Source: an uncultured Opitutales bacterium
GTDB lineage: Bacteria; Myxococcota_A; UBA9160; SMWR01
DNA: 64,000 nucleotides
Assembly: GCA_964194865.1 (NCBI GenBank)
Contig: CAXMOC010000255.1
Span: forward strand, 3,090-67,089
Direction of reading: 5' to 3'
Shown here: one piece after another, positions 25,859 to 40,574 of the stretch
Layout of the letters: each line of letters opens with the position of its first letter
How positions within the stretch are numbered: the first letter of the stretch is position 1
The notes under the pieces: model-generated
Told to the model about the DNA's origin: nothing
The model's input: only the letters and a program-made list of their open reading frames with translations
Database searches by the model: none
Program-made: the position numbers and the translations under genes

Positions 25859-27103
25859 ATGGGTATGCGTGACGTTCGCATGAAGGGTTTCGCCCAGCGG
25901 GCGGACGTAGAGGAAGTGGACGCCTTCCTGGGCGAGCACGCCCACGCGCTCGACGCCGAGCCGGTCGAGCTGCTGAAGTGTGCGGGACGCGTGCTCGCCG
26001 AAGATCTGTGCTCCGAAGTCGACGTTCCCGGCTTCGCACGCTCCGCCATGGACGGCTACGCGGTGAGGGGCGAGGACACTTTTGGCGCCGGTACCTACGA
26101 GCCCATCACATTGACACTCGAGGGAGAGGCGCTGCCCGGCCGGTCTTTCCCAGGGCGGGTCGAGTGCGGCACGGCCGTGCGGGTGATGACGGGCGCACCG
26201 CTTCCCGCTGGAGCCGACGCCGTCGTGATGGCCGAGGTCTGCGAAGAGCGCGACGGCAAGGTCGAGATCAGTGAAGCGGTCGCCCCGCAAAAGCACGTCG
26301 GAGCGGTCGGCGAGGACATTCGCTCTGGGGATCTGGTGCTTCGCGCCGGCCGGCGTCTGCGTGCTCAGGATGCGGGACTGCTCGCGTCGATCGGCGTCGC
26401 CAGCGTCCGTTGCATAAGACGCCCACGGGTCCAGCTGGTGATCACGGGAGACGAGCTTCTGCCTGCGGGGAGCCGACCCGAGGGCCCGAGCATCGTCGAC
26501 AGCAACTCGGTGGTGCTGCGCTCGCTGATCGCGCGCGACGGAGGCGAGGTGTTGCCCTTCGAGATCCTACAGGATCGTCCGGAGGTCATCCGGGACGCAC
26601 TGATCCGGCCAGGGGCCGATGTGGTTGTGGTATCGGGTGGTAGCTCAGTGGGCACCGAGGACCATGCGCCCCGGCTGGTCGCCGAGCTCGGCCAGCTCCA
26701 CTTCCACGGCATCTCCATGCGTCCCTCGAGCCCCACCGGTATCGGCCGGGTCGAAGGTCGACTGGTGTTCCTGTTGCCGGGCAATCCGGTCAGCTGCCTA
26801 TGCGCCTACGAGTTCTTCGCGGGGCCTCACCTGCGTGCACTCGGCGGGCGATTCCGGGGGTGGCCCCACCGCCGAGTCCGGCTGCCGCTGGCACGCAAGA
26901 TCAGCTCGGCGGTGGGTCGTACGGATTACGTGAGGGTTGCGATCGAAAACGAGCGGGTCGTGCCGATCGCGACCTCCGGGGCATCGATCCTGTCGTCGAC
27001 CGTGCGCGCTGCAGGCTGTGTGGTGGTGCCGCGGGAGCTTGAAGGAATGCCGGACGGCGCCGAGGTAGAGGTCCTGCTCTACGATGACGAGGGTGCTATT
27101 TGA
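25859..27103 (+). CDS. moeA: molybdopterin molybdo/tungstotransferase MoeA
   Basis: PGFARSAMDGYAVR, VRVMTGAPLP, VITGDEL, VVVSGGSSVGTEDH, LLPGNPVS. The stop overlaps the next start (TTGA at 27100-27103). Confidence 0.85.
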   Translation: MGMRDVRMKGFAQRADVEEVDAFLGEHAHALDAEPVELLKCAGRVLAEDLCSEVDVPGFARSAMDGYAVRGEDTFGAGTYEPITLTLEGEALPGRSFPGRVECGTAVRVMTGAPLPAGADAVVMAEVCEERDGKVEISEAVAPQKHVGAVGEDIRSGDLVLRAGRRLRAQDAGLLASIGVASVRCIRRPRVQLVITGDELLPAGSRPEGPSIVDSNSVVLRSLIARDGGEVLPFEILQDRPEVIRDALIRPGADVVVVSGGSSVGTEDHAPRLVAELGQLHFHGISMRPSSPTGIGRVEGRLVFLLPGNPVSCLCAYEFFAGPHLRALGGRFRGWPHRRVRLPLARKISSAVGRTDYVRVAIENERVVPIATSGASILSSTVRAAGCVVVPRELEGMPDGAEVEVLLYDDEGAI

Positions 27104-28998: not shown

Positions 28999-30327
28999 GT
29001 GGCCACCCAGCTGCGCCGGGGCTCCCGCGTCGGAAAGTATCGGATCGATCGCAGGATCGGGCGAGGCGCCTTCGCCGAAGTCTGGAAGGCGCGCGACACG
29101 GTCGAGAACCGCCCGATCGCACTCAAGCTGACCCGGCCCGATGCGGTGGCAGAGTGGGGCCGCCATGCGATCGAACACGAGGCGCGCATCGCGAGCCGGC
29201 TCGATCACCCGGGTTTGGTTGCCATTCGCAATGCTGACTGGATCGACGGCTGCTTCGCCATCGTGACAGACCTCGCGCTCTGCAATCTCGCCAACTACAC
29301 AAGAGCGCGCCGCTCTGCGGCTACCGCCCTCGAGGTCATTCGCGAGGTGGCGTCCGGGCTGGCCTACGCCCACGAGAGGCGCATCTTTCATCGAGACGTC
29401 AAGCCCGAGAACATCCTGATCTTCGAAGATGGCCGCGCCGCGCTCGCTGACTTCGGCGCGTCGCGCTTTGCCAAGGGTGCGGAGCGCACCGTAACGGACG
29501 CGGGTACGCTCGGTTACATGGCGCCGGAGCAAGCCTACGGGCGCGGGCGCTTTACCTCGGACGTCTTCTCGCTCGGACTGATCGGTTACGAGCTGCTCAC
29601 CGGAGTGCTGCCGTCTTGGCCCTTCGAGTGGCCGCCGCCCGGCCACGATCGCTTTGCTGCCAAGGTGCCCGAATCTCTGCGTCCGGTGCTGCGCAAGGCC
29701 GCCCAGTTCGATCCGCGTCGGCGCTATGTCGATGGCGGCGAGTTCTATCACGCGCTGGAGCGCGCGTTCACCCAGGCCGAGCGCCCGAAGGCGAGCCCTC
29801 CGATTCGCCGCAAGCGACGAGCACCGCCTTCGCCGCTCGCCGTCCAGGCCAACGCCTTTCGCCGCGCCCACGGCAAGGGTCTCGGCATGCGCTTCTCTTG
29901 CCGCCGCTGCGAGAGCCCAATTGCCGAGGCGATGCAGTTCTGCCCCTGGTGCGGAGCATCCGACAACTCCTATCGCGACCTGACGAGCTTTCCGCTGGTG
30001 TGCCCGGACTGCGAGAAGGGGGTGCGCGCCGAGTGGAACGCCTGTCCGTGGTGTTACCCAGGCCGCTTCGTCGGAAACGGCCGCAAGCCGCTGCGCGATG
30101 CCAAGGCGGTGCGCCGTTGTGCGGGCCGGAGCTGTGAGGGACAGCTCCGCCCCTTCATGCGTTACTGTCCGCTCTGCAAGCGCAAGACCAAGCGCGTGTG
30201 GTCGCATCGCAATCTGCCCGATCGCTGTCCGCGCTGCCGCTGGCCGACTTCCCACGCCTTCATGCGCTTCTGCCCCTGGTGCGGTCGCCGCGAATCCCGC
30301 GCGGGCTCGTTTTTATCGGCGCGCTGA
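28999..30327 (+). CDS. Hanks-type Ser/Thr protein kinase with four C-terminal zinc-ribbon repeats
   Basis: IGRGAFAEVWKA, IALK, HRDVKPENIL, LADFGAS, GYMAPE. Then four C-x2-C...C-x2-C units: CRRCES..FCPWCG, CPDCEK..ACPWCY, CAGRSCEG..YCPLCK, CPRCRW..FCPWCG. The GTG at 28999 directly abuts the moeA stop (TGAGTG). Confidence 0.85.
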   Translation: MATQLRRGSRVGKYRIDRRIGRGAFAEVWKARDTVENRPIALKLTRPDAVAEWGRHAIEHEARIASRLDHPGLVAIRNADWIDGCFAIVTDLALCNLANYTRARRSAATALEVIREVASGLAYAHERRIFHRDVKPENILIFEDGRAALADFGASRFAKGAERTVTDAGTLGYMAPEQAYGRGRFTSDVFSLGLIGYELLTGVLPSWPFEWPPPGHDRFAAKVPESLRPVLRKAAQFDPRRRYVDGGEFYHALERAFTQAERPKASPPIRRKRRAPPSPLAVQANAFRRAHGKGLGMRFSCRRCESPIAEAMQFCPWCGASDNSYRDLTSFPLVCPDCEKGVRAEWNACPWCYPGRFVGNGRKPLRDAKAVRRCAGRSCEGQLRPFMRYCPLCKRKTKRVWSHRNLPDRCPRCRWPTSHAFMRFCPWCGRRESRAGSFLSAR

Positions 30328-30643
30328 ACCACCTCACCGATCGAACGAGCGGGCCGCCTGGGCCCAGCCAGCTCGGCGCTCGCTCGCCCCGAGTGGTCTG
30401 CCCAGGCGTTTCGCGAACCCCGTGCGGGCTCGTTTTTGTCGGCCCGCTGAACCACCTCGTCGGTGCCCCTGGGCCCCGGCCAGCTCGATGCTCGATTAAC
30501 CCGAGTGGTCTGCCCAGGCGTTTCGCGAACCCCGCGCGGGCTCGTTTTTGTCGGCCCGCTGAACCACCTCGTCGGTGAAACGAGCGGGGCCCCTGGGCCC
30601 CGGCCAGCTCGATGCTCGATTAACCCGAGTGGTCTGCCCGGGC
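30289..30643. repeat. tandem array of three ~112-123 bp structured repeat units (30289-30411, 30412-30523, 30524-30643)
   Basis: Each unit reads cgcgaa(t/c)cccg.gcgggctcgttttt(a/g)tcgg.ccgctgaaccacctc...cctgggccc.gccagctcg...ccgagtggtctgccc. Units 2 and 3 are near-identical apart from a 12-nt indel (aaacgagcgggg), and unit 1 is more diverged. Internal inverted repeats are GCGGGC...GCCCGC and GGGGCCC-CT-GGGCCCC. The array overlaps the stop codons of both flanking convergent genes. Confidence 0.85.
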
Positions 30644-31711
30644 TAGTAGCCGGAGTGCCTGCGCCTTGATGATCGCGTAGACCTCGACTCCGGGCCGCAG
30701 CTCTAGGGCGTCGACGGCTGCTGGAGTGACCTTGGCCACGAGGGGTTCGCCGGCGTCCAGGTGGATGCGCGCGTTGTCACCGCTGACTTCGCAGGTCGAC
30801 ACGGTCGCACGGATTGCATTGCGGGCGGAGATACGGCCGGGAGGATCACGGCTGAGCAGCACATCTTCGGCGCGCAATCCCAGCCGAACCGATTCGCCGG
30901 CCGGCAGTGTCACAGGGATGACCAGGCGCAAGCCGGCTCGAGTTTCGACGGTGGAGCCCGCGCCGCTGTTCTCCACCACCCGGCCGTCGATCGCATTCTC
31001 CAGGCCCAGTGCTTCCGACACCGGCAGCACCGCCCGGCTCCACAAGACCTCGCGCGGAGGGCCGCACGCGACGACGCGGCCGCGGTCGAGCACTGCGACG
31101 ATGTCACCAACCAGCATCGCTTCGTCGGGGTCGTGGGTGATGTAGACGATGGGGATGTCGAGCTCGTCGCGCACGCGGAGCAGATAGGGCAGGACCCGGG
31201 CGCGCAGCGGCCAATCCAGGGCTGCCAGCGGCTCGTCCAGCAGGAGGGTGCGGGGGCCGGCGGCGAGTGCGCGGGCGATCGCCACGCGCTGGCGCTCGCC
31301 CCCGGAAAGCTCGCCCACTCCGCGCCCGAGCAGGTCGCCGATTTCCAGCGCTTCGATCGCTCGCTCGACGGAGGGCGCCGTGCGGCCGTGGGCGCGTCGC
31401 CGCCCGAAGCGGAGATTGCCCGCTACGGACAGGTGAGGGAATAGCGTCGGGTCCTGGGGAACCCAGCCGAGCGCGCGATCCTCGACGGCGAGACGCAGGC
31501 CCCGCTCGGCATCGTCGAGCCAGACGCCGCCCAGCTGGATTCTCCCGCGCGCCTCGGGGATCAATCCCAGGGCGGCGTGGAAGAGGGTCGATTTGCCCGA
31601 GCCGCTGGGGCCGAAGATCACCGCAACTCGCTCGTGCCAGCCGAAATCGACGTCGAGCCGGAAGCCCGCTCGCTCGAGCTTGAGCTGGATTCGTGACTCG
31701 GTGCCGCTCAC
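30620..31711 (-). CDS. modC: molybdate ABC transporter ATP-binding protein with C-terminal TOBE/Mop domain
   Basis: The GTG at 31711 overlaps the modB stop (GTGA). Walker A GPSGSGKST, signature LSGGERQRVAIARAL, Walker B LLLDEPLAALD. The TOBE-like tail is ISARNAIRATVSTCEVSGDNARIHLDAG. The rest of the 635-aa track ORF is an out-of-frame shadow over modB. Confidence 0.85.
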   Translation of the reverse strand: MSGTESRIQLKLERAGFRLDVDFGWHERVAVIFGPSGSGKSTLFHAALGLIPEARGRIQLGGVWLDDAERGLRLAVEDRALGWVPQDPTLFPHLSVAGNLRFGRRRAHGRTAPSVERAIEALEIGDLLGRGVGELSGGERQRVAIARALAAGPRTLLLDEPLAALDWPLRARVLPYLLRVRDELDIPIVYITHDPDEAMLVGDIVAVLDRGRVVACGPPREVLWSRAVLPVSEALGLENAIDGRVVENSGAGSTVETRAGLRLVIPVTLPAGESVRLGLRAEDVLLSRDPPGRISARNAIRATVSTCEVSGDNARIHLDAGEPLVAKVTPAAVDALELRPGVEVYAIIKAQALRLLARADHSG

Positions 31712-32376
31712 CGGTGACCCCGTCGCAACCAGCCTTCGCCAATCAGCATTGCCGCGAGCGCGATCGTGAAGGAAGCGGTGCACAGCGCGAGGGCTCCGGC
31801 GTCGTCTCCGAGCAGGACGCGCGAGTAGATTCCCAGCGCCAGGGTCTCGGTCCGGCCTGGAATGATCCCCGCCACCAGGGTGGTGGCGCCGAACTCGCCG
31901 AGGGCGCGCGTGAAGCTCAGCAGAGCACCGTAGAGCACCCCACGCCGGGCCAATGGCAACGTGACACGAAAAAATGTTGACAAAGGACTCAGCCCAAGAG
32001 AGCGGGCTACTTGCTCGAAGCGGGGGTCGACTTCCGCGAACGATTGCTCGCACGCCCGTACCAGCAGCGGGAAGCCCACTGTGCCCGCTGCGAGCACCGC
32101 CGCCCACCAGCTGAAGACGATCTCGACCTCGAGCGCGGACCACAGCGCGCCGAGCGGCCCGCGGGGCCCCAGCAACAGCAACAGGAACAGGCCAACGGCG
32201 ACGGGCGGCAGCACCATGGGTAGCGCGATCAGCGCCTGAAGCAGTGATTTTCCGGCGAACTCTCGTCGGGCGAGGGTGTGTCCGAGGAAAACGGCAGGTG
32301 GCAGAATTGTAAGCGTCGCCACCACCCCCACGCGCAAGGTGAGCGCGGTGATCGAGAGCAGCTCCTCGGCGCTCAT
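31708..32376 (-). CDS. modB: molybdate ABC transporter permease
   Basis: 222 aa, five to six hydrophobic helices, EAA-loop region FEQVARSLGLSPLSTFFRVTLPLARRG. ATGA overlap with the modA stop. Confidence 0.85.
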   Translation of the reverse strand: MSAEELLSITALTLRVGVVATLTILPPAVFLGHTLARREFAGKSLLQALIALPMVLPPVAVGLFLLLLLGPRGPLGALWSALEVEIVFSWWAAVLAAGTVGFPLLVRACEQSFAEVDPRFEQVARSLGLSPLSTFFRVTLPLARRGVLYGALLSFTRALGEFGATTLVAGIIPGRTETLALGIYSRVLLGDDAGALALCTASFTIALAAMLIGEGWLRRGHR

Positions 32377-33194
32377 TCGACTTTTCCTCTGTCGCGGGCG
32401 TTAGAATTGGGAGCGCTAGCGAAGCCCGCCGCACCCAGAACCCGCTGGGCGGAGTCGCCCGCCAGAAACTGCACGAAGCGCCGAGCGAGCGGCAGGCTTC
32501 GCGACTCAGCGAGTGGCGCCGCGACATAGAAGATGTGCGGTTGCTCGCCCAACGGCACTTCGAACGCCACCCGCGCCGAGCGCGCGAGCGCGGCGTCGGT
32601 CGCGTAGACGATCGCGACGTCCGCGTGGCCGAGATCGACGGCGCTCAGCGTGGCACGGGCGTGCTCGGTCTGGAGCATCCGGGGGGCGAGGCGCTCGAGC
32701 AGCTGGTGGGTGCCCAGCCATTCCCGGGCATAGCGGCCCACTGGAACCGCGTGCTCGGGGATCGCGATTCTGCGCACGGCGGGGCCGGCGAGATCTGCGG
32801 CATTTGCAATTGCGTGCCCTGTCTGCGCTGAAGCGATCACCACGAGCCGGTTGCGAGCGATGGGCCGTGGGTCTCCAGGCGCAACCAGCCCCGCGGTGAC
32901 CAGCGGCGCGACGAGGCGAGCATCGGCCGAGACGAAGACGTCGATGGGCGCACCAGCGCGTATCTGATGGGCCAGCACGCTGCTCGCGCCGAAGCTCAGC
33001 GTGATTACCGCGTCTGGATGCGCCGCCTCGAAGTGCTCAGCGATGGACAGCAGGGGCTCGCGAAGGCTCACCGCGGCCCCCACCAGTAGCTCCGCTTCCA
33101 ACCCACCCGCGACCAGCAGAAGCAGCGCTGCGGCCAGCCAGGCCCCAAGGGAACGGGCCCTGGAGGTGCCACTCGAATCGCGCTGGCTCGCCAT
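32373..33194 (-). CDS. modA: molybdate(/tungstate)-binding periplasmic protein
   Basis: ATG at 33194 with SD GGGAGGA. Signal LGAWLAAALLLLVAGG. ModA-type motifs LSFGASSVLAHQI, DVFVSAD, DVAIVYATDA. The upstream part of the 431-aa track ORF is discounted. Confidence 0.8.
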   Translation of the reverse strand: MASQRDSSGTSRARSLGAWLAAALLLLVAGGLEAELLVGAAVSLREPLLSIAEHFEAAHPDAVITLSFGASSVLAHQIRAGAPIDVFVSADARLVAPLVTAGLVAPGDPRPIARNRLVVIASAQTGHAIANAADLAGPAVRRIAIPEHAVPVGRYAREWLGTHQLLERLAPRMLQTEHARATLSAVDLGHADVAIVYATDAALARSARVAFEVPLGEQPHIFYVAAPLAESRSLPLARRFVQFLAGDSAQRVLGAAGFASAPNSNARDRGKVE

Positions 33195-33308
33195 CGGATC
33201 CTCCCAGCGTCGCGATGAATACCGAACTTCAGCTCGTTTTCCCTTCGAGGGGTTGTCGGCCGACGGTGGCGTGGCAGGATAGGGGGCTGCCAATCCGGGG
33301 GGCAGGGC

Positions 33309-33755
33309 GTGCGGAAACCCATCATCCTCACTGCACTCGCGGTGATGCTTCTCGTCGCCGCCTCGCTCTGGCTCGAGGAAGGCGAGGTCGTCACCCTCGT
33401 TACCACCGACGACCAGGGCCAGGAATTCGAGACCGGGCTTTGGATCGTCGACCTCGACGGCGTGCCCTATCTGCGGGCGGAGTCCGCTGACGCCAGCTGG
33501 CTCGATCGGATCCGCGCTCGGTCCGACGTTCAGCTCGATCGCGCGGGCCGACGCTTTGCCTATCGCGCGATCCCCCTCGACGATGCGAAGATTCGCGAAG
33601 CCGTGAATCAAGCGATGGACGAGAAGTACGGCGGCCTGGATCGCGTGTTGGTCTGGCTCTGGGATCACTCGGGCGCGGTGCCGATCCGTCTCGACCGACT
33701 ACCCACAGCGAATTCGATGCCGCACAGTGACCTCAGGGTCGGAGCGGTTCGATAG
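33309..33755 (+). CDS. hypothetical membrane-anchored protein (possibly split-barrel/DUF385-like)
   Basis: N-terminal TM/signal MRKPIILTALAVMLLVAASLW. The remainder has coding-like composition (VVTLVTTDDQGQEFETGLWIVDLDGVPYLRAE...). The family assignment is only a loose resemblance. Confidence 0.45.
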   Translation: MRKPIILTALAVMLLVAASLWLEEGEVVTLVTTDDQGQEFETGLWIVDLDGVPYLRAESADASWLDRIRARSDVQLDRAGRRFAYRAIPLDDAKIREAVNQAMDEKYGGLDRVLVWLWDHSGAVPIRLDRLPTANSMPHSDLRVGAVR

Positions 33756-33862: not shown

Positions 33863-35011
33863 GTGGGCCGTGGGCCCGATGGTCGAGTGGTGTTCGTCCC
33901 TTTTACCGCACCGGGGGATCGGGTGCGCGTTCGGATTACCGTCAAGCGGTCGCGTTACTCACGAGGGGTGGTCGACACCCTGCTCGAGCCGGGAATCCAG
34001 CGCACCGAGCCGGTCTGTGCGGTCTTCGGCTCCTGCGGTGGTTGTGCGTGGCAACACGTTCGCTACGACGCGCAGCTCGCCGCGAAGCGTGCGATCGCCA
34101 CAGCGGCCATCGAGCGCATCGGTGGGCTCGCGCTGCCGCATCCGCTGAAAATCACCGCTTCTCCATCGCCGTACGGCTATCGCAGCCGAAGCCGCGTGCT
34201 GGTGGACGGGGGCAAGGTTGGCTACCGGCGACGGCGTTCCAATACCCTGTGCCCCACCCGGCGCTGTCCCGTGCTGGTCAGCGAGCTGGACCAACGCCTA
34301 TCGGAACTCGCCGATGATCCGCCGCGAGTCGAGGGGGAATGGGAGCTTGCCTCCGGGCAGACGGACCCCACGTCGCCGAGCTTGGCGCGTGTTTCCGGGG
34401 ACGGCGATCTCGGCCCGCGCATCTGGCTCTCCGTTGGCGGGGACCGCATCGGCTTCTCGCCCGGCGTCTTTGTCCAGTCGAATGCCGGGCTGATCGACGT
34501 CATGGCGGGTGCCGTGATGGCAGCGGCCGGCACGGGCGACTTGGCACTGGAACTCTTTGCGGGCGCCGGCTTTCTCACGCTCGGGCTCTCGCGGCGCTTT
34601 GAGGCGGTCGTGGCCGTCGAGGGAAACCCGAAGGCCGCGTCCGATCTGGAGCTCAACCTGCACGAGGCGCGAATCGACAACGCCCGGGTGGTGTCGGGTA
34701 CGGTCGAGACTTCGCTCGCAGGCGATCCGCTCGCTGACCTCCGCCCCGACGTGGTGGTAATCGATCCTCCGCGGACAGGGCTCCCCGACGCTGTGGGCGA
34801 TGCGATTGCGGACCGGCAGCCCCAGAGAATCGTCTACCTCTCGTGCGATCCCGCGACTCTCGCGCGCGATCTGTCGCTGTTCGACCACCGCGGCTATTCA
34901 CTGACGCACGCCGAAGCTTTCGACCTCTTCCCCCAGACCCCTCACGTGGAGGTCTTGACGGTCTGCACGCGACAAGTTGGAGTGGAATTGCCAGCGAGTT
35001 CGTCTTCGTGA
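33863..35011 (+). CDS. TRAM-domain, SAM-dependent RNA (uracil-5)-methyltransferase (RlmD/RumA-like)
   Basis: TRAM remnant GRVVFVPFTAPGDRVRVRI. Fe-S cysteines CAVFGSCGGCAWQH plus a downstream C. Methyltransferase motifs ELFAGAGFLTL and VVVIDPPRTG. Catalytic region VYLSCDPATLARD. The start may lie upstream at a non-canonical codon. Confidence 0.8.
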   Translation: MGRGPDGRVVFVPFTAPGDRVRVRITVKRSRYSRGVVDTLLEPGIQRTEPVCAVFGSCGGCAWQHVRYDAQLAAKRAIATAAIERIGGLALPHPLKITASPSPYGYRSRSRVLVDGGKVGYRRRRSNTLCPTRRCPVLVSELDQRLSELADDPPRVEGEWELASGQTDPTSPSLARVSGDGDLGPRIWLSVGGDRIGFSPGVFVQSNAGLIDVMAGAVMAAAGTGDLALELFAGAGFLTLGLSRRFEAVVAVEGNPKAASDLELNLHEARIDNARVVSGTVETSLAGDPLADLRPDVVVIDPPRTGLPDAVGDAIADRQPQRIVYLSCDPATLARDLSLFDHRGYSLTHAEAFDLFPQTPHVEVLTVCTRQVGVELPASSSS

Positions 35012-35042
35012 CGAATCCAGCCTCAGAGGCGGCGCGAGAAGT

Positions 35043-35684
35043 TCAGGGCTCGATCAAGCCGTGGCGGAGCGCGTAGCGGACGAGTTCTGTCGCCTTGCGA
35101 ACGCCGAGCTTGCGCATCAGGCTGGTTCGGTGGGCTTCCACGGTCTTGGTGCTGATGTGAAGCTGGCCCCCGATCTCCTTGGCGGCGAAACCCTCCGCGA
35201 TCAAGTGCAGCACTTCGCGTTCTCGCCCGGAAAGAATCGAAAACGGCTGCTCGCTGGGTGGCCGCGGATCGCGGATCTGGTCGGCGATTTCGCGCGCCAC
35301 CGTCGGGCTGAAGTAGCTCCCTCCGCGCATGACCGCGCGAATTGCGGAGACGATCTCGTCGGTGTGCGCACTCTTGAGGACGTAACCGTCTGTGCCCAGG
35401 GAAACCGCATTCTGGACGATGGGCGGCTCCGAGTGGATTGAAAAGAGGATCGTCTTCACATTGGGATACTTCGCGCGAATTCGCTCGAGTGCTTCGAGAC
35501 CACTGAGTCGCGGCATGCTGACGTCCAGAATGACGACGTCTGGATGATGTTTCTCGGTCTGCTCGAGAGCCTCGAGTCCGTCCGAGGCCTCCGCGCACAC
35601 CTTGATGTCGTCTTCCGCTTCAGCCAGGTGGCGGATTCCCGCGCGTACGATGCTGTGATCGTCGGCCACGAGCAGGGAAATCAC
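35043..35684 (-). CDS. NarL/FixJ-family response regulator (REC + LuxR-type HTH)
   Basis: LLVADDH...DVVILDVSMP (phospho-acceptor Asp), GYVLKS, LSGREREVLHLIAEGFAAKEIGGQLHISTKTVEAHR. No cognate histidine kinase is adjacent. Confidence 0.9.
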   Translation of the reverse strand: MISLLVADDHSIVRAGIRHLAEAEDDIKVCAEASDGLEALEQTEKHHPDVVILDVSMPRLSGLEALERIRAKYPNVKTILFSIHSEPPIVQNAVSLGTDGYVLKSAHTDEIVSAIRAVMRGGSYFSPTVAREIADQIRDPRPPSEQPFSILSGREREVLHLIAEGFAAKEIGGQLHISTKTVEAHRTSLMRKLGVRKATELVRYALRHGLIEP

Positions 35685-35735
35685 ACAGCTAGACTACACC
35701 TCGGGTTGTGTTGCAGGCAACCAATTCAGCTCGAT

Positions 35736-35751
35736 CGCGCGGCGCCGCGCG
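35736..35751. promoter_or_regulatory. perfect 16-bp palindrome in the divergent control region (candidate operator)
   Basis: CGCGCGGCGCCGCGCG is its own reverse complement. It lies between the response-regulator start (35684) and the operon starting at 35806. GC-only palindromes can arise by chance in this composition. Confidence 0.25.
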
Positions 35752-35805
35752 GACGACCACGGGCGATGTGGGCTACGATCGAGGAGCCAAGGCCTCCCGG
35801 AATGA

Positions 35806-36453
35806 ATGATGTCTCCGATCGAGCCCGCCGTGGAGTCTGTGCAGGGTCGCCCACGCGGCTTCATCCTCTACGTCGAGGGGCCAAGAGATCGCGCGATCCT
35901 CAGAGCCTGGGCGTATCGTCTGCTGCCCTCGTTGGGTCGTCAGCTCTTCGGCGGATCGGTCATACTGGGGGGACGACGCCCCGCCCGAGCCGTCGAACAC
36001 TTCCGCGGCGCCGGAGGCGCCGAGGCTGGCCTACTTGGACTCTGCGTGCTGGATCGAGACGCAGGTGTCGAGCCTGCCCAGCCCACTTCCACTGAGCTGG
36101 GCCTGGAGTTCTTCACCTGGGGGCGACGGCACATCGAGAGCTATCTACTCGTTCCCGCCGCCATCCATCGAACGCTTCGCCTGGCCGACGACGACCGACG
36201 CATCCACCGGGCTCTCGACGAAGTCTTGCCCCAGCCGGCCGACGAGTCCGCCTATCGCCGTGTGGACGCCAAGCGGTTGCTCGGACCCAAGGGCGCCTTG
36301 CCCCGCGCCCTGGGCAGGTCGATTCCCCTTCAGCGGGTGGCGCGCGCCACGCGTCAGGAAGAGCTCCATCCCGATGTGCACCTGCTTTTCGACCGCCTGC
36401 GCGACAGGTTGGGAGTGACGCGCCCGCGAGCGGATGGAGCAGGGTTTGAATAA
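35806..36453 (+). CDS. Toprim-like protein of the DUF4435/OLD-nuclease-C-terminal type (tentative)
   Basis: The order FILYVEGPRDRAIL ... VILGGRRPA ... LCVLDRDAG ... FTWGRRHIESYLL matches the VEG...GG...DxD...E-x-Y-L layout I associate with DUF4435/Toprim. There is no ATPase partner nearby. It overlaps the next gene by 20 nt. Confidence 0.45.
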   Translation: MMSPIEPAVESVQGRPRGFILYVEGPRDRAILRAWAYRLLPSLGRQLFGGSVILGGRRPARAVEHFRGAGGAEAGLLGLCVLDRDAGVEPAQPTSTELGLEFFTWGRRHIESYLLVPAAIHRTLRLADDDRRIHRALDEVLPQPADESAYRRVDAKRLLGPKGALPRALGRSIPLQRVARATRQEELHPDVHLLFDRLRDRLGVTRPRADGAGFE

Positions 36454-36862
36454 CCATGCCGACTGCATCTTCTGCCAGATCGTTCGCGGCGAGGCCCCGA
36501 GTTTCTCGCTGTGCCAGGACGAACAGGCGCTCGCTTTCATGGACATTTTTCCGGTCGCTCCCGGTCACGTCCTGGTGATCACGCGGGAGCACTTCGAGAA
36601 CATCTTCGAAGCCTCGGACGATTCGCTGCGCGCGGTCGCCGCCATGTCCAAGCGCCTCGCACAGGCGATTCGAACGCAGCTCGCCCCAGAGGGCCTAGGA
36701 GTGTTTCAGCTCAACGGCGCCGCCGCGGGACAGACCGTGTTTCACTATCACCAGCACCTGATACCTCGTTCTGGCGGCGACTCTCTCCAGCTTCACAGCC
36801 GCGTAAGGGGAAACGACGGCGAGCTGGTGGCGCTTTCGCGCAAGCTGGCCGCCGCGCTATGA
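36434..36862 (+). CDS. HIT-family nucleotide hydrolase/transferase
   Basis: CIFCQIVRGE, DIFPVAPGHVLVITREH, histidine triad FHYHQHLIPR. Confidence 0.85.
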   Translation: MEQGLNNHADCIFCQIVRGEAPSFSLCQDEQALAFMDIFPVAPGHVLVITREHFENIFEASDDSLRAVAAMSKRLAQAIRTQLAPEGLGVFQLNGAAAGQTVFHYHQHLIPRSGGDSLQLHSRVRGNDGELVALSRKLAAAL

Positions 36863-37515
36863 ACCTCGATCCCCGACAACGCGCGTCGCTTGCAGACGCC
36901 GTGACGCGTGCACTCGAGGCCGCGGAGAGTGGATCTCGGGCCGGCCTCCGAGGCTCGTTGGCGCGTGGGCAAGCGGATCCCTACAGCGACATCGATACCT
37001 TCTGGGAGTTGCCCGACGCCCGTTTCCATCCGGCCATCGACGACCTGGCCGAGACGTTATCCCGAGTGGGGGAGATCGATGCCATTCGCTCGGACCCCCT
37101 GCTGCAGAGCTCGGACAAGCGAAGGCTGCTGTTCGTCCAGTTCGCAGACGTGCCGCTCTACTGGCGGGTCGACATCGAGGTCTTCGCCGCATCGATCGGC
37201 ATGGACGCCTCTTATGATCTGGACAACCCAGGGGCCCGGGGGGACGACTGGTCACTCACCCATAGCGCTCTGATGAACGGGGTGGCCGCGCTGAAGTTGC
37301 TGCTTCGCGGCGACGAGGAGGGTGCCAGCGAGTCGCTCCGTAGCGCCTTCGATCGCGTCGATCTCGCGGTTCCGGACGAGCCGCCCTGGGATCAGATCAT
37401 CACGCTCGCCGAGGTGGTGGGCCGCCTGGATCTCGACCAGGCCGAGCTGGTGCGCCGGGTCCAGCTGCACCACCGCGACGCGCTTGTCCAGCGCAGCCAG
37501 TTGCTCCGCCGCTAA
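36859..37515 (+). CDS. polymerase-beta-superfamily nucleotidyltransferase (ANT/KNTase-like) with helical C-terminal domain
   Basis: ATGA overlap with the HIT stop. NTase signature LRGSLARGQADPYSDIDTF (G-S-x9-12-D-x-D) and a third acidic residue in WRVDIEVF. The C-terminal helices contain RVQLHH (an R-x4-H, HEPN-like spacing). Confidence 0.65.
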   Translation: MNLDPRQRASLADAVTRALEAAESGSRAGLRGSLARGQADPYSDIDTFWELPDARFHPAIDDLAETLSRVGEIDAIRSDPLLQSSDKRRLLFVQFADVPLYWRVDIEVFAASIGMDASYDLDNPGARGDDWSLTHSALMNGVAALKLLLRGDEEGASESLRSAFDRVDLAVPDEPPWDQIITLAEVVGRLDLDQAELVRRVQLHHRDALVQRSQLLRR

Positions 37516-37528
37516 CCTAGCTGCTGCG

Positions 37529-38326
37529 ATGCCCGAACTCCTGGCCCTCGACTTCGACGGCGTCATCTCTGACAGCGCTCCCGAATCGTTCGTCGTCGCG
37601 CTGTTGACCTACACCGACGTGATCGACGACTCTGTTTTCCTGGAGCGCAGGGCAAAGCTCGAAGCCGAGCACCTACCGGAAACCGGTCACATCACCGCAG
37701 ATCCCCTCTACACCCGCTTTCTCGAGCTGATGCCTCTGGGAAATCGAGCCGAGGATTTTGCCGTGAGCCTCTCAGCTCTCGAAGCGCGAACATCCCTCCC
37801 CGACCAAGCGGCCTACGACGCCTTTCGCTCTCAGTTGGATGAAGCTTGGCTGCGCAATTTCCACCTGCGCTTCTACGAGAATCGAATCCGGCTCTCGACT
37901 CGAGATCCCATTGGCTGGCGCCGTTTGATGGGCCCGTATCCTGCCTTTCTACGGGTGCTCGAGCGTCGGGCGAGTGAGACACTACTCGTGATTGCCACCG
38001 CCAAGGACCGAAGGACAGTGGGCATGCTGCTGTCCGATTACGGAATCGAAGCCCTGTTCGGGGTCGATCAGGTGTTCGACAAGGAAACCGGTGTCCACAA
38101 GGACTCCCATCTGCGGCAGATCCACAGCACTTTCGGCATCGCCTACGACGAGATCGTGTTCGTCGACGACAAACTGAATCACCTCGACAGAGTGGCGAAT
38201 CTGGGCGTTCGCTGTGCGCTGGCTAGCTGGGGTTACAACGCGGAGCGCGAAGCCAACCAGGCGCGCGATCGCGGACACCTCGTGTGTACGCTCGAGGACG
38301 TGGAAACCCAGCTCTTCGACCTTTGA
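37529..38326 (+). CDS. HAD-superfamily hydrolase/phosphatase
   Basis: Motif I LALDFDGVISDS (DxDxV), motif II VIATAK, motif IV FVDDKLNH. The ATG is 13 nt after the previous stop. Confidence 0.7.
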   Translation: MPELLALDFDGVISDSAPESFVVALLTYTDVIDDSVFLERRAKLEAEHLPETGHITADPLYTRFLELMPLGNRAEDFAVSLSALEARTSLPDQAAYDAFRSQLDEAWLRNFHLRFYENRIRLSTRDPIGWRRLMGPYPAFLRVLERRASETLLVIATAKDRRTVGMLLSDYGIEALFGVDQVFDKETGVHKDSHLRQIHSTFGIAYDEIVFVDDKLNHLDRVANLGVRCALASWGYNAEREANQARDRGHLVCTLEDVETQLFDL

Positions 38327-38432
38327 GCGGCTGGCGAATCAAACGGGCGCGTGGGGTCTTGGCTACGCCCTCGAGCCGTTCTACTCTGGCGACTCCCCCG
38401 GGGAGGATGCGGTGACGGATCTCGGCTTTCGA

Positions 38433-38978
38433 ATGCACGCCGAGCGCACCCCCAACCCCAACAGCATCAAATGGGTGCTCGGCCGCCGTCTGGTCGAGGG
38501 AACCGCCAGCGCCCACTTCGACTCGCCCCCCACGCCGGACGTCTCTGCCCTCGCCCGCCAACTCTTTGCCGTTGACGGGGTGGTCGGGGTCTTTTTCGCT
38601 GCGAACTTCGCGACGATCTCCAAGCGGGCGGAGATCGAGTGGATCGACATCGCCCAACCCATCGTGGACACCATCAAGGAGCATCTGGGCTCGGGTGAGT
38701 CGGCGCTCGGGCCCGGCTTTCGTAGCGAGGATATCTCCCTTGCCGCGGGAGGGGACCTGGTCGAGCGAATCTGTCGTCTGCTCGACGAGGAAATCCGGCC
38801 CGCCGTCGCTCGGGATGGAGGAGATATCGTCTTCGTAGATTTCCGGGAGGGCGTCGTGCAGCTCCGAATGATCGGCGCCTGCAGCGGCTGCCCGAGCTCG
38901 ACCGCTACATTGAAGCTCGCAGTAGAATCGAGGCTCCGGGAGGAGATCCCGGAGGTCCAGGAGGTGGTGGCCGTTTAG
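38433..38978 (+). CDS. NFU1-type Fe-S scaffold protein (Nfu_N + NifU C-terminal domain)
   Basis: N-domain TPNPNSIKWVL...VDGVVGVFFAANFATISK. C-domain IRPAVARDGGDIVFVDFREGVVQLRMIGACSGCPSS (CxxC). An alternative in-frame GTG lies at 38412, after GGAGGA. Confidence 0.8.
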   Translation: MHAERTPNPNSIKWVLGRRLVEGTASAHFDSPPTPDVSALARQLFAVDGVVGVFFAANFATISKRAEIEWIDIAQPIVDTIKEHLGSGESALGPGFRSEDISLAAGGDLVERICRLLDEEIRPAVARDGGDIVFVDFREGVVQLRMIGACSGCPSSTATLKLAVESRLREEIPEVQEVVAV

Positions 38979-38998
38979 CGGCGGCCGGCGCCTTTTTT
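38979..38998 (+). terminator. candidate intrinsic terminator after the Nfu gene
   Basis: A short GC stem (GGCG-GCCGG-CGCC) is followed immediately by TTTTTT (38993-38998). A T6 run is rare in this GC-rich window. Confidence 0.45.
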
Positions 38999-39083
38999 GG
39001 GCGCTGCAATTCGAAATCCGCAAGATCCCCCCGCGTTCCCCCGTAACGGATGGTGCTGAGCGACAACGAGAGGGCGATCGGGT

Positions 39084-40574
39084 TTGAGCGGGGGAAAGCG
39101 TTCCGGGCGAGGGCTCGGCCACAGCGAGAGTCATTGGCGCCGGAGCCAGCGGCAGAGGCGCCGGCGATGGACCCGTCGAGGTCTGGCGACCCTGGCCGGC
39201 TGTCTGGGGCTGACGGCTGGGATATCTGGCCTGATCGGCGGCTCGCTCGTTCGCACGGAGCCAGACGCCACCGGGACGCCTGAGGGTGCCGAGGCCGTGG
39301 CCCAGAGCGCCCAGGCGCCCACCCGGCTCACCCTGCCGCCCCCCGGCCTACTCGAACGACTGCCCGTCACCGAGCGAGTTCTCGACTTGCCCGTCGCGAC
39401 CAACCCATTGGGAGCAGAGCGCTTCCACGAGTTCGTACAGATCAGAGAGGCCGCGCCAGACCGCGAGAACTCGTTTCGCGTGGCCTATACGCTCGACCCG
39501 GAGCTCACCCGCCAGGTGTTCCGAGTCCTGCTAAACGGTCGGGTGGCTCTGGGCCACGTCATCCTGCTCGACCCCCGGAGTGGTCGCGTGCTCGCCTACG
39601 CGTCCACCGATGTGCAGCAGTTCCCACCCACGCGGGCGTATCCCGCCGCGTCGTTGATCAAGGTCATTACCGCCGCCGCAGCACTCGATCGCGATCCGTC
39701 CCTGGCCAACCTTCCCTGTCGCTACCGAGGGAGTCCCTACCGACTGACCCCGGCTCGCATCGATCCGCCCCGTGCCGGGGTGGAAGTTTCGTTCCGCAAG
39801 GCACTGGCCAGCTCGAACAACCAGTGCTTCGCGCAGCTGGCGGTTCACTCGGTCGGCGAAAAGCCGTTGTTGAGCGCCATTTCGCGCTTCGGCTGGTTGT
39901 CTGCGCCCGCTCCAGCCCACGCGCCCGGCTCCGCCGACGCGGGCGAGGACCGCTACGACGTAGGGCGGCTCGGTTGCGGGCTGGCGGGATCACGCATCAC
40001 TCCTCTGCACGCCGCCCAGCTGGCCGCCACATTGGCTCGGGGCGAGCTGGTCGCCCCGCGTTGGATCGAGGCAATCTACGCGGCCGATGGCCGCGAGTTG
40101 GTGCTTCCCGCCACACCGGTGCCGCGGCGGGTCATGACCCCCGAGCTTGCGGCGGAGCTCCGCTCCATGCTGGTGGACACCACCCGCCGCGGAACCGCGC
40201 GCCGGGCGTTTCGACAGCGCAACGGACGCCAGCTGCTGGGTCCCGTCGCCGTCGCCGGCAAGACGGGCAGCCTGTCAGGCAAGAACCCTGAGGGGCGGTA
40301 CGAGTGGTTCGCGGGCGTGGCACCCGCCGATGAACCGCGAGTTGCCATCGCCGTCCTGCTGGTCCAAGGCGATCTGTGGTGGCGAAACGCCTCACAGATC
40401 GCCGCCGAGGTACTTCAGCGCGTCTTCTGCGAGGGCCGCGACTGCAGCCCCGAACATGTTGCCCGCTGGATGCGAGCCCCTTCGGCAACGGCGACGACGC
40501 GCATCGGCCACGGCGGCGTCGAACCAAAGAGCCAGACGGCTTTGCGAGATTCGCCGTTTGCCCCCAATATCTAG
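39084..40574 (+). CDS. penicillin-binding transpeptidase-domain protein
   Basis: N-terminal TM (LATLAGCLGLTAGISGLIGG). Active-site triad of motifs: S-x-x-K in AASLIKV, S-x-N in LASSNNQ, K-T-G in AGKTGSL. Confidence 0.8.
   Translation: MSGGKRSGRGLGHSESHWRRSQRQRRRRWTRRGLATLAGCLGLTAGISGLIGGSLVRTEPDATGTPEGAEAVAQSAQAPTRLTLPPPGLLERLPVTERVLDLPVATNPLGAERFHEFVQIREAAPDRENSFRVAYTLDPELTRQVFRVLLNGRVALGHVILLDPRSGRVLAYASTDVQQFPPTRAYPAASLIKVITAAAALDRDPSLANLPCRYRGSPYRLTPARIDPPRAGVEVSFRKALASSNNQCFAQLAVHSVGEKPLLSAISRFGWLSAPAPAHAPGSADAGEDRYDVGRLGCGLAGSRITPLHAAQLAATLARGELVAPRWIEAIYAADGRELVLPATPVPRRVMTPELAAELRSMLVDTTRRGTARRAFRQRNGRQLLGPVAVAGKTGSLSGKNPEGRYEWFAGVAPADEPRVAIAVLLVQGDLWWRNASQIAAEVLQRVFCEGRDCSPEHVARWMRAPSATATTRIGHGGVEPKSQTALRDSPFAPNI

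What the first reader, a model, noticed from the sequence alone, without database searches (positions are those of the whole stretch)
35685..38326. Overlapping four-gene operon: Toprim/DUF4435-like + HIT + pol-beta nucleotidyltransferase (HEPN-like tail) + HAD phosphatase, divergent from an orphan NarL-type regulator
Four genes are packed with 20-nt and 4-nt overlaps and a 13-nt gap. (1) A 215-aa protein has motif order VEG ... GG ... DRD ... IESYLL, reminiscent of DUF4435/OLD-type Toprim nuclease domains. Those normally accompany an ABC/AAA ATPase in anti-phage systems, and none is present here. (2) A HIT nucleotide hydrolase/transferase. (3) A GS-x-DxD nucleotidyltransferase whose helical C-terminus contains R-x4-H. 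(4) A HAD phosphatase. Every member plausibly acts on nucleotides or nucleic acid, which suggests a nucleotide-modifying, nucleotide-signalling or defence/toxin-type module that I cannot match to a described system. The divergent promoter region holds a perfect 16-bp palindrome (35736-35751), and the neighbour is a response regulator with no kinase. Composition is indistinguishable from the flanks, so this is not an obvious recent island.
Basis: inference. Interest (0 to 1): 0.6.

Follow-up and report, generated by a model that had tools for sequence, protein, structure and literature searches.

The report
Orphan Toprim nuclease beside rRNA methyltransferase
The four tightly packed genes are real but do not form a conserved system; the one unusual gene encodes a defence-type (OLD/PARIS-like) Toprim nuclease that has no ATPase partner nearby and is inherited like a housekeeping gene, next to a 23S rRNA methyltransferase, across a clade of uncultured Myxococcota.

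Summary
The genes, their 20-nt and 4-nt overlaps, the 13-nt gap and the 16-bp palindrome are at the stated coordinates. The domain calls mostly hold.

- **Gene 1 (35806-36453):** an OLD/AriB-type Toprim protein. Its model best matches the C-terminal regions of OLD nucleases. E24, D28, D83-x-D85 and E111 are invariant.
- **Gene 2:** a Hint-type HIT protein.
- **Gene 3:** a pol-beta nucleotidyltransferase with a LinB/ANT/TUTase-like helical domain. It is not HEPN, and its R-x4-H is not conserved.
- **Gene 4:** a divergent HAD phosphatase.

The "module" reading fails. Of 51 related Myxococcota loci with a full downstream flank, 3 carry the nucleotidyltransferase, 1 HIT and 28 HAD. Nucleotidyltransferase homologues elsewhere sit in unrelated operons. 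The palindrome is at chance frequency and is not conserved.

The gene-1 clade is notable. Its relatives outside the clade are fused to, or directly follow, an OLD-type ABC ATPase (77 of 77 loci), and two checked lie in or beside defence-type genes. The clade itself has no such ATPase in 928 kb of flanks. It evolves under purifying selection like its neighbours (dN/dS 0.11-0.15). An RlmD-like methyltransferase lies upstream in 59 of 61 loci.

Best reading: an ATPase-less Toprim nuclease taken over for a housekeeping role, possibly acting on RNA. Its function is inferred, not shown.

The parts
33863..35011 (+). RlmD-like 23S rRNA (uracil-C5)-methyltransferase with TRAM and tRNA_U5-meth_tr domains. 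It is the only near-invariant neighbour of G1.
   Evidence: TIGR00479 rumA scores 234.9 bits against a cutoff of 183.55. Pfam finds TRAM and PF05958. It lies upstream of G1 in 59 of 61 related loci with a full upstream flank.
35043..35684 (-). NarL/FixJ-type response regulator, transcribed divergently from G1, with no kinase next to it. It sits between the methyltransferase and G1 in about half of the lineages.
   Evidence: Response_reg E 2e-28 and GerE E 1.8e-20. Present in 34 of 61 loci, and always between the methyltransferase and G1.
35736..35751 (.). Perfect 16-bp palindrome made only of G and C (CGCGCGGCGCCGCGCG). Probably fortuitous.
   Evidence: The window has 3 such palindromes, against 2.6 +/- 1.9 expected. 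It is absent from the intergenic regions of relatives.
35766..35779 (+). Conserved -10-like element (ATGTGGGCTACGAT here, ATGTGGTCTAAT in relatives), about 27 nt upstream of the G1 start. Putative G1 promoter.
   Evidence: It holds the main cluster of invariant columns in the alignment of 8 RR-G1 intergenic regions. Its role as a promoter is inferred; the sigma-70 consensus scan found no promoter.
35806..36453 (+). G1: a free-standing OLD/AriB-type Toprim protein (Toprim core plus helical domain) with a complete predicted two-metal site and no ATPase.
   Evidence: AF2 model with pLDDT 81.8. Best PDB matches are the OLD C-terminal regions 6njx and 6nk8, then GajA, the retron Eco2 effector and Thermus scotoductus OLD. 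Invariant residues are E24, D28, G55, G56, D83, D85, E111 and K156. Distant relatives are AAA_15/AAA_21-Toprim fusions. dN/dS is 0.11-0.15.
36434..36862 (+). Hint-branch HIT nucleotide hydrolase (motif HYHQHLI). A patchy insertion between G1 and NT.
   Evidence: PF01230 E 1.8e-26. Best solved relative is B. subtilis Hit 1y23 at 5e-29. Present only in L009, L010 and L169, with an overlapping but unidentified gene fragment at the same position in L172, and absent from the 80%-identical relative L170.
36859..37515 (+). Pol-beta-superfamily nucleotidyltransferase (GS...DIDxxW, D105) with a C-terminal helical bundle of the LinB/ANT(6)/TUTase type. Substrate unknown.
   Evidence: PF01909 at 23.5 bits against a cutoff of 21. 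Model pLDDT 93.4. Foldseek top hits are LinB, TUT7, MEAT1, poly(A) polymerase, CutA and ANT(6), with no HEPN hit. Found next to G1 only in the closest relatives and in unrelated contexts elsewhere.
37529..38326 (+). Divergent HAD-superfamily phosphatase (motif I DFDGV). Part of the conserved chromosomal backbone HAD-Nfu-PBP, not tied to G1 by distance.
   Evidence: Matches HAD models only below their cutoffs. Weak match to MDP-1. Present downstream in 28 of 51 loci, at distances of roughly 0.01 to 4.6 kb with unrelated genes in between.
38433..38978 (+). Nfu/NifU-type Fe-S scaffold protein, followed by a terminator-like hairpin (38968-38987). This is the end of the same-strand gene run.
   Evidence: Nfu_N E 6.9e-22 and NifU E 5.6e-27. 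It is the only terminator-like site in 34900-39200.

Best explanation
The G1-HIT-NT-HAD cluster is a lineage-specific juxtaposition on a conserved housekeeping backbone (rlmD-like methyltransferase, optional response regulator, G1, a variable insert, then HAD, Nfu and PBP). It is not a dedicated multi-gene system.

The noteworthy gene is G1. It is a member of the OLD/AriB (DUF4435-like) branch of Toprim nucleases that exists as a free-standing 215-aa protein without the OLD-type ABC ATPase to which all sampled relatives outside the clade are fused or adjacent.

G1 keeps every residue expected for two-metal phosphodiester cleavage:
- E24 is the Toprim glutamate.
- D28 sits at +4, like E404 of Burkholderia pseudomallei OLD.
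- D83-x-D85 is the DxD motif.
- E111 lies at the start of the helical domain, like E508.
- K156 is a candidate counterpart of K562.

G1 is vertically inherited, appears to be single-copy (one hit per assembly among the 80 loci kept), and is under purifying selection as strong as that on its housekeeping neighbours.

Inferred steps, none of them shown:
- G1 is an active Mg2+-dependent endonuclease.
- It lost ATPase control and was recruited to a cellular role.
- Its near-invariant linkage to the RlmD-like m5U methyltransferase, together with the tRNA-cleaving activity of AriB and the rRNA-processing activity of the related RNase M5, makes an RNA substrate (rRNA or tRNA processing or surveillance) the most likely target.
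- HIT, NT and HAD are independent accessory or housekeeping enzymes that happen to be co-transcribed here.
For: **Fold and homology**
- The model's best solved-structure matches are the OLD C-terminal regions 6njx and 6nk8 (E 5e-4 and 1e-3, probability 1.0). GajA, the retron Eco2 Toprim effector and Thermus scotoductus OLD follow with non-significant scores.
- A profile search finds AAA_15/AAA_21-Toprim fusions of 555-620 aa in which the G1-like domain is C-terminal. Their best PADLOC models are AriA, AriAB and NsnB.
- Stand-alone distant relatives match AriAB (8e-7), AriB (0.004) and DUF4435 (1e-3).
- The catalytic residues are invariant and map onto the B. pseudomallei OLD active site described in PMC6755086.

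**ATPase contrast**
- In 77 of 77 metagenomic loci of the sister clade that have upstream sequence, the ATPase lies immediately upstream or is fused.
- There are 0 ATPase hits at E<=0.01 in the window plus 84 loci of the Myxococcota clade, 928 kb in all.
- One fused relative lies in a defence island with an MmeI-type RM enzyme, SNF2 helicases, a Schlafen/AlbA protein and BrnT/BrnA. Another sits next to a PrlF antitoxin among metabolic genes.

**Vertical, housekeeping-like behaviour**
- The genome scan found 123 stretches encoding a relative. All 80 kept loci come from MAGs, most labelled Myxococcota or Deltaproteobacteria.
- G1 divergence tracks that of its neighbours (r 0.55-0.81).
- dN/dS is 0.11-0.15 for G1 and 0.15-0.21 for the response regulator, methyltransferase, Nfu, HAD and NT.
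- The clade is monophyletic in an NJ tree.

**Linkage**
- Upstream: methyltransferase 59 of 61, response regulator 34 of 61. Downstream: Nfu 31, PBP 30, HAD 28, NT 3 and HIT 1 of 51.
- The genes inserted between G1 and HAD vary.
- NT homologues lie in unrelated operons.
Against: - There are no experimental data, so nuclease activity and substrate are inferred.
- G1 matches no Pfam or NCBIfam model directly. Its PADLOC AriAB hit is weak (E 0.014). The TM-scores to OLD C-terminal regions are only 0.43-0.54.
- A partner ATPase encoded elsewhere in the genome cannot be excluded, because whole genomes could not be searched.
- All loci come from one clade, so the rlmD-G1 linkage could be inherited gene order rather than functional coupling.
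- RNase M5 was not among the 50 best fold matches.
- The NJ tree has no support values.
- Tight overlaps between G1, HIT and NT do indicate co-transcription and possibly translational coupling in this genome, so a local functional link cannot be excluded.
Confidence: 0.6

Rival explanations
1. One reading: G1, HIT, NT and HAD together form a new nucleotide-modifying, nucleotide-signalling or anti-phage/toxin module.
For: The genes overlap or nearly abut and lie on one strand, with a single terminator-like site only after Nfu. All four families act on nucleotides or nucleic acids. The same order G1-HIT-NT-HAD recurs in L009 and L010, and G1-HIT followed by an overlapping gene start recurs in L169.
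Against: NT accompanies G1 in only 9 of 81 loci and HIT in 2 of 81. With full flanks the counts are 3 and 1 of 51. The 80%-identical relative L170 lacks HIT. NT homologues sit in ccm and xanthine-dehydrogenase-type operons and beside GmrSD. HAD is separated from G1 by unrelated genes in many lineages. Composition matches the flanks and the surrounding block is syntenic and housekeeping. There is no meaningful PADLOC system hit.
Confidence: 0.08
2. G1 is the effector of a split PARIS/OLD-like defence system whose ATPase sensor is encoded elsewhere in the genome.
For: G1 belongs to the AriB/OLD Toprim branch. Free AriB is toxic and is normally held inactive by AriA (PMC12409363), so some form of control is expected.
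Against: In 77 of 77 sister-clade loci the ATPase is fused or adjacent, so a split arrangement would be exceptional. No ATPase was found in 928 kb of flanks. The fixed chromosomal position, vertical inheritance and low dN/dS are atypical of defence genes.
Confidence: 0.15
3. G1 is a catalytically inactive or purely structural or regulatory Toprim remnant, for example a nucleic-acid-binding protein.
For: No activity has been shown. Some Toprim proteins, such as RecR, are not nucleases (established knowledge). G1 matches no curated family model.
Against: All metal-ligand positions (E24, D28, D83, D85, E111) plus H109, R107/R108 and K156 are invariant across sequences only 58-78% identical to the window protein, and most of them also hold in ATPase-linked relatives only 24-35% identical. 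That pattern fits a retained active site.
Confidence: 0.1

Closest known systems
AriB, the Toprim (DUF4435) effector of the PARIS (AriA-AriB) anti-phage system
   Same: Both are free-standing Toprim proteins in which the conserved glutamate lies near residue 25 (E26 in AriB). The AriB active-site segments (residues 19-43, 80-87, 109-115; PMC12409363) lie at nearly the same residue numbers as E24/D28, D83/D85 and E111 of G1. PADLOC AriAB and AriB are the only defence models that G1 and its stand-alone relatives touch.
   Different: There is no AriA-type ABC ATPase adjacent or fused. The PADLOC match is far below confidence for G1 itself (E 0.014). The gene is vertically inherited in a housekeeping block rather than patchy in defence islands. 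The PARIS structures did not appear among the 50 best fold hits.
C-terminal Toprim-plus-helical region of Class 2 OLD nucleases (B. pseudomallei 6nk8, X. campestris 6njx)
   Same: These are the best structural matches over the whole length. The residues of the two-metal site have equivalent sequence positions: E400/E404/D455/D457/E508/K562 in OLD against E24/D28/D83/D85/E111/K156 in G1.
   Different: OLD proteins carry an N-terminal ATPase domain in the same polypeptide. Sequence identity is 16-17% and TM-scores are 0.43-0.54. Class 2 OLD genes pair with a UvrD-like helicase (PMC7049728 abstract), and none is present here.
Fused AAA_15/AAA_21-Toprim 'ATP-dependent nuclease' proteins (555-620 aa, for example P0199, P0207, P0440)
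   Same: They are the closest sequence relatives of G1 outside its clade (E 1e-22 to 1e-10) and share the motifs YxEGxxD, GGR, LDxD, WxRxEIExYLL and ExHP. They branch next to the G1 clade in the NJ tree.
   Different: They carry the OLD-type ABC ATPase. They are only 30-37% identical to P0199 and come from scattered taxa. One lies in a defence island and another beside an antitoxin gene.
Cran1, an archaeal OLD-family ATPase-nickase with a cell-cycle role
   Same: It is a precedent for an OLD-family enzyme recruited to an essential, non-defence function (PMC12796447).
   Different: Cran1 keeps its ATPase domain, and its nickase activity depends on that domain. It is archaeal, and no sequence relationship to G1 was tested.
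RNase M5 (Toprim 5S rRNA maturase)
   Same: It is a small free-standing housekeeping Toprim ribonuclease whose two-metal site is conserved with those of OLD and AriB. G1's conserved neighbour is an rRNA methyltransferase.
   Different: It is not among the 50 best fold matches, and no sequence match was found. The analogy is functional only.
LinB / ANT(6) antibiotic nucleotidyltransferases and non-canonical poly(A)/poly(U) polymerases (for the NT gene)
   Same: Both have a pol-beta catalytic domain followed by a helical domain. These are the best Foldseek hits.
   Different: TM-scores are only 0.33-0.40 and identity is 12-20%. The substrate is unknown. NT is not a HEPN partner.

Membership tests
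Toprim domain, OLD/AriB/DUF4435 branch | Invariant Toprim glutamate after the first strand | tested here: met
   E24 in YVEGPxD is invariant in 15 of 15 clade sequences and nearly invariant in the wider alignment. The model places strand E18-23 just before it.
Toprim domain, OLD/AriB/DUF4435 branch | Conserved glycine after the second strand, and a DxD motif | tested here: met
   G55, G56, D83 and D85 (LDRD) are invariant in the clade. D83 is invariant across all 14 sequences of A2.
Toprim domain, OLD/AriB/DUF4435 branch | Extra metal-B ligands (an acidic residue at Glu+4 and a Glu at the start of the helical domain) and a helical-domain Lys, as in B. pseudomallei OLD E404, E508 and K562 | tested here: inconclusive
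   D28, E111 and K156 are invariant and lie at matching sequence positions.
Toprim domain, OLD/AriB/DUF4435 branch | Fold: Toprim core plus helical domain, similar to the OLD C-terminal region | tested here: met
   Foldseek against PDB gives 6njx at E 5.3e-4 and 6nk8_A at 1.1e-3, probability 1.0, TM 0.43-0.54, with the alignment covering the whole protein.
Toprim domain, OLD/AriB/DUF4435 branch | Match to the curated models PF14491 (DUF4435) or PF20469 (OLD-like_TOPRIM) | tested here: not met
   G1 matches no Pfam family at E<=1. Only 4 and 2 of the 14 A2 members reach E 1.2e-3 and 0.056 respectively. Membership of those Pfam families as currently defined is therefore not shown, although the superfamily relationship holds through intermediate sequences.
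PARIS (AriA-AriB) defence system | An OLD-type ABC ATPase (AriA) encoded adjacent to, or fused with, the Toprim effector | tested here: not met
   tblastn with five ATPase domains gave 0 hits at E<=0.01 in the window plus 84 related loci, against 77 of 77 in the sister clade.
PARIS (AriA-AriB) defence system | Patchy, island-associated distribution typical of defence genes | tested here: not met
   G1 has a fixed position after rlmD in 59 of 61 loci, a divergence that tracks its neighbours, and dN/dS of 0.11-0.15.
PARIS (AriA-AriB) defence system | tRNA cleavage and abortive-infection phenotype | not testable with these tools
   This needs biochemistry and phage assays.
OLD family nucleases (Classes 1-4) | N-terminal ABC ATPase domain in the same polypeptide | tested here: not met
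   G1 is 215 aa and consists of the Toprim and helical regions only.
HEPN domain / MNT-HEPN pair (claimed for the NT tail) | Conserved R-x4-6-H motif and a HEPN helical fold | tested here: not met
   The His of RRVQLH is replaced in part of the family alignment, and that column is neither invariant nor nearly invariant. There is no HEPN structure among the 50 best Foldseek hits.
Pol-beta nucleotidyltransferase superfamily (NT) | A G-S motif, then DxD, plus a third acidic residue; match to PF01909 | tested here: met
   G32, S33, D44, D46 and D105 are invariant. PF01909 scores 23.5 bits against a cutoff of 21. Fold hits are LinB, TUTases and poly(A) polymerases.
HIT superfamily, Hint branch | HxHxHxx histidine triad; match to PF01230 | tested here: met
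   The motif HYHQHLI is present. PF01230 E 1.8e-26 and PDB 1y23 at 5e-29.
HAD phosphatase superfamily | Motif I DxDG(T/V) and motif IV acidic pair; match to a curated model | tested here: inconclusive
   DFDGV and FVDDK are present in the sequence. All Pfam and NCBIfam HAD matches fall below their cutoffs, for example PF00702 at 20.5 bits against 26.4.
RlmD (RumA) 23S rRNA m5U1939 methyltransferase (neighbour gene) | Score above the TIGR00479 cutoff; TRAM domain | tested here: met
   234.9 bits against 183.55, and a TRAM domain. The true substrate (rRNA or tRNA U54) is not testable here.

The most novel reading that the evidence does not exclude
G1 is a former defence nuclease taken over by the cell: an AriB/OLD-type Toprim ribonuclease that shed its ATPase sensor and now works constitutively with the RlmD-like m5U methyltransferase in rRNA or tRNA maturation or quality control. 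That would make it a new housekeeping RNase family restricted to a clade of uncultured Myxococcota, and a clear example of an immune effector moving into core RNA metabolism.
Probability: 0.2. Interest if true: 0.7.

Novelty: new variant of a known kind. Interest (0 to 1): 0.42.

Why it matters
OLD/PARIS/Gabija-type Toprim nucleases are viewed as ATPase-controlled immune effectors, and free AriB is toxic. A clade in which this nuclease exists without an ATPase nearby, keeps an intact active site, and is conserved like a core gene next to an rRNA/tRNA methyltransferase raises two questions. How is such a nuclease kept harmless? And did it move from defence into housekeeping, or the other way round? 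It would add a bacterial, ATPase-free case to the recent archaeal Cran1 example. The result also shows that tight gene overlap alone does not define a system, because the "four-gene module" dissolves under comparative analysis.

Tried and rejected
- **Sequence searches of PDB.** Searches with G1, with profiles A2 and A3, and with P0241 found no Toprim structure. An explicit residue alignment to AriB or OLD was therefore not obtained, and the active-site mapping rests on motif order and spacing.
- **Viral searches.** Foldseek against viral structures gave nothing significant. PHROGs gave nothing for G1 or NT.
- **Cluster look-up.** It gave almost no taxonomy for the fused relatives.
- **Palindrome as operator.** Rejected, because it is at chance frequency and not conserved.
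- **HEPN tail on NT.** Rejected.
- **Recent island.** Rejected on composition and synteny.
- **RNase M5 membership.** Considered and not supported by the fold ranking.
- **My own error.** I briefly misread the ruler and placed the palindrome one base off.

Full report
**1. What is in the sequence**

ORF listing and direct reading confirm four same-strand genes:
- G1, 35806-36453 (215 aa)
- HIT, 36434-36862 (142 aa)
- NT, 36859-37515 (218 aa)
- HAD, 37529-38326 (265 aa)

G1 and HIT overlap by 20 nt, HIT and NT by 4 nt, and NT and HAD are 13 nt apart. Upstream on the opposite strand lies a NarL/FixJ-type response regulator (35043-35684). Beyond it is a TRAM-domain m5U methyltransferase (33863-35011) that passes the RlmD model cutoff. 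Downstream come Nfu (38433-38978), a terminator-like hairpin, and a PBP transpeptidase. GC content does not set the cluster apart from its flanks.

The 16-bp palindrome is at 35736-35751, exactly as reported. The window has 3 perfect palindromes of that length or more, against 2.6 +/- 1.9 expected. The equivalent intergenic regions of the closest relatives hold no palindrome of 12 bp or more, and the aligned segment is not conserved there. What is conserved in that region is a -10-like element at 35766-35779.

**2. Identity of the four proteins**

HIT is an ordinary Hint-branch protein (PF01230 at 1.8e-26; B. subtilis Hit 1y23 at 5e-29).

NT passes PF01909 narrowly. Its model is confident (pLDDT 93.4). 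The best structural matches are LinB, TUT7, MEAT1, poly(A) polymerases, CutA and ANT(6). These are two-domain pol-beta nucleotidyltransferases, not HEPN proteins.

HAD has intact motifs but matches HAD models only below their cutoffs.

G1 matches no Pfam or NCBIfam model. It gives one weak PADLOC hit, to the fused PARIS protein AriAB (E 0.014).

**3. G1 is an OLD/AriB-type Toprim protein**

A 15-sequence alignment shows these invariant residues: E24 and D28 (YVEGPxD), G55 and G56, D83 and D85 (LDRD), R107, R108, H109, E111 (RRHIESYLL), and D154, K156, R157 (DAKR).

The AlphaFold model has pLDDT 81.8. Its best solved-structure matches are the C-terminal Toprim-plus-helical regions of the Xanthomonas and Burkholderia OLD nucleases. 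GajA, the retron Eco2 Toprim effector and Thermus scotoductus OLD follow with non-significant scores.

In B. pseudomallei OLD the two-metal site is built from E400, E404, D455, D457, T506/E508 and K562 (PMC6755086). The order and spacing of G1's invariant residues reproduce this pattern. The active-site segments of AriB also fall at almost the same residue numbers (PMC12409363).

A profile search of 1.8 billion representative proteins found 442 clusters. Beyond the core family, the hits include proteins of 555-620 aa whose C-terminus is G1-like and whose N-terminus is an AAA_15/AAA_21 ABC ATPase. Their best PADLOC models are AriA, AriAB and NsnB, with weaker Old and GajA matches. The best solved relative of one such ATPase is T. 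scotoductus OLD. Some stand-alone distant relatives reach DUF4435 and OLD-like_TOPRIM weakly.

**4. The ATPase contrast**

A metagenome scan with the distant stand-alone clade returned 80 loci. In all 77 that have upstream sequence, an ATPase lies immediately upstream on the same strand or is fused. The same ATPase queries found nothing at E<=0.01 in the window plus 84 loci of the G1 clade, 928 kb in all.

In an NJ tree without support values, the G1 clade is monophyletic. It branches next to three fused ATPase-Toprim proteins (P0199, P0207, P0245), and every other branch of the tree is ATPase-linked. The fused family is diverse (30-37% identical to the query P0199) and taxonomically scattered. 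One member checked lies in a defence island with an MmeI-type RM enzyme, SNF2 helicases, a Schlafen/AlbA protein, BrnT/BrnA and a transposase. Another sits next to a PrlF antitoxin among metabolic genes.

**5. G1 behaves like a core gene**

The family has 1455 members at 90% clustering. Every one that carries a source name is called hypothetical, and the only organism named is Myxococcota bacterium. The scan of 185,579 species genomes found 123 stretches encoding a relative. The 80 kept loci are all from uncultured MAGs, most labelled Myxococcota or Deltaproteobacteria, with a few evidently mislabelled. There is one hit per assembly among them.

The identity of G1 to the window copy tracks that of its neighbours (r 0.55-0.81). 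dN/dS is 0.11-0.15 for G1 and 0.15-0.21 for the response regulator, methyltransferase, Nfu, HAD and NT.

**6. The four genes are not a conserved unit**

Counts come from tblastn of the window proteins on the related loci, counting only loci with a full 6-kb upstream flank (n=61) or at least 5.5 kb downstream (n=51).

| Side | Neighbour | Loci with it |
|---|---|---|
| Upstream | RlmD-like methyltransferase | 59 of 61 |
| Upstream | MoeA-PBP | 34 of 61 |
| Upstream | Response regulator | 34 of 61 |
| Upstream | DUF2255-like ORF | 23 of 61 |
| Upstream | Ser/Thr kinase | 16 of 61 |
| Downstream | Nfu | 31 of 51 |
| Downstream | PBP | 30 of 51 |
| Downstream | HAD | 28 of 51 |
| Downstream | NT | 3 of 51 |
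| Downstream | HIT | 1 of 51 |

In the most divergent class (G1 below 55% identity) the methyltransferase is still present in 27 of 27 loci, but HAD in only 9 of 22.

The space between G1 and HAD is filled by different genes in different lineages, including an acyl-CoA carboxyltransferase-like gene and membrane proteins. HIT is present in L169, whose G1 is 87% identical. L172 (98% identical) has an overlapping gene fragment at the same position whose identity was not checked. HIT is absent from L170, at 80% identity.

NT homologues at about 50% identity lie between ccmB and ccmC, inside a xanthine-dehydrogenase-type cluster, and beside GmrSD and HEPN_RiboL-PSP genes. So NT is a mobile single gene with no fixed partners.

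Where the response regulator is absent, the methyltransferase ends 40-250 nt before the aligned start of G1 in most loci (32 of 36). In some the ORFs nearly abut, which suggests co-transcription.

**7. Interpretation**

The interesting entity is G1: an OLD/AriB-branch Toprim nuclease that is ATPase-less, active-site-intact, vertically inherited, and linked almost invariably to an RlmD-like m5U methyltransferase.

I infer, without direct evidence, that G1 is an active two-metal endonuclease recruited to a cellular role. An RNA substrate is plausible for three reasons:
- AriB cleaves tRNA.
- RNase M5 shares the catalytic architecture.
- The conserved neighbour modifies rRNA or tRNA.

Cran1 is a precedent for non-defence OLD-family enzymes.

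The main rival is a split PARIS-like system with a distal ATPase. I could not test this because whole genomes were out of reach.

**8. Novelty and score**

G1 is a new variant of a known kind: an ATPase-free, housekeeping-like member of the OLD/AriB Toprim branch that current Pfam and NCBIfam models do not capture. Interest is moderate, because the finding is evolutionarily and mechanistically suggestive but rests entirely on inference.

Noticed in passing
window 6829-6854: A 26-bp perfect palindrome, CGTCGACATCGGGCCCGATGTCGACG. It is much longer than the other perfect palindromes in the window, which are 16 bp at most.
   Followed up: no
window 35766-35779; L001, L003, L005-L008, L011 intergenic regions: A conserved ATGTGG(T/G)CTA(C)(G/A)AT element about 27 nt upstream of the G1 start, and a conserved TACAC next to the response-regulator start. 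These are the only conserved blocks in the divergent intergenic region. The sigma-70 consensus scan found no promoter there.
   Followed up: partly
L165/L166 5001-5645; L167 5001-5639; L168 5001-5639: Homologues of the NT gene (about 50% identical) sit as single genes in unrelated operons: between ccmB and ccmC, between two xanthine-dehydrogenase-type gene sets, and beside GmrSD and HEPN_RiboL-PSP genes. This suggests a small mobile or accessory nucleotidyltransferase family of unknown substrate.
   Followed up: partly
window 33309-33755: A small 148-aa ORF with only a weak DUF2255 match. It is conserved in the same position, upstream of the methyltransferase, in relatives (148 aa in L169 and L170; tblastn hits in 23 of 61 loci).
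   Followed up: no
window 27100-33200: A molybdenum-related block: a MoeA fused to a PBP_like domain (27100-28998), a Ser/Thr kinase with double zinc ribbons (28999-30327), and a ModC/ModB/ModA-type ABC transporter on the minus strand (30620-33200). The 635-aa ORF at 30620-32527 is probably over-extended, because its homologues are 357-363 aa.
   Followed up: no
L173/L174 2432-7773: In Rhodoferax MAGs a fused ATPase-Toprim relative of G1 overlaps the 3' end of an MmeI-type RM/methyltransferase gene. The island also holds SNF2 helicases, a PLD-helicase and a Schlafen/AlbA protein, which resembles BREX-related 'OLD-ABC plus TOPRIM' backup modules (PMC12839542).
   Followed up: partly
window 35043-35684 and the related loci: Across the loci, the response regulator is the protein most similar to its window counterpart (mean 68% identity, against 58% for G1). 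It is present in only about half of the lineages, always inserted between the methyltransferase and G1 in the divergent orientation.
   Followed up: partly
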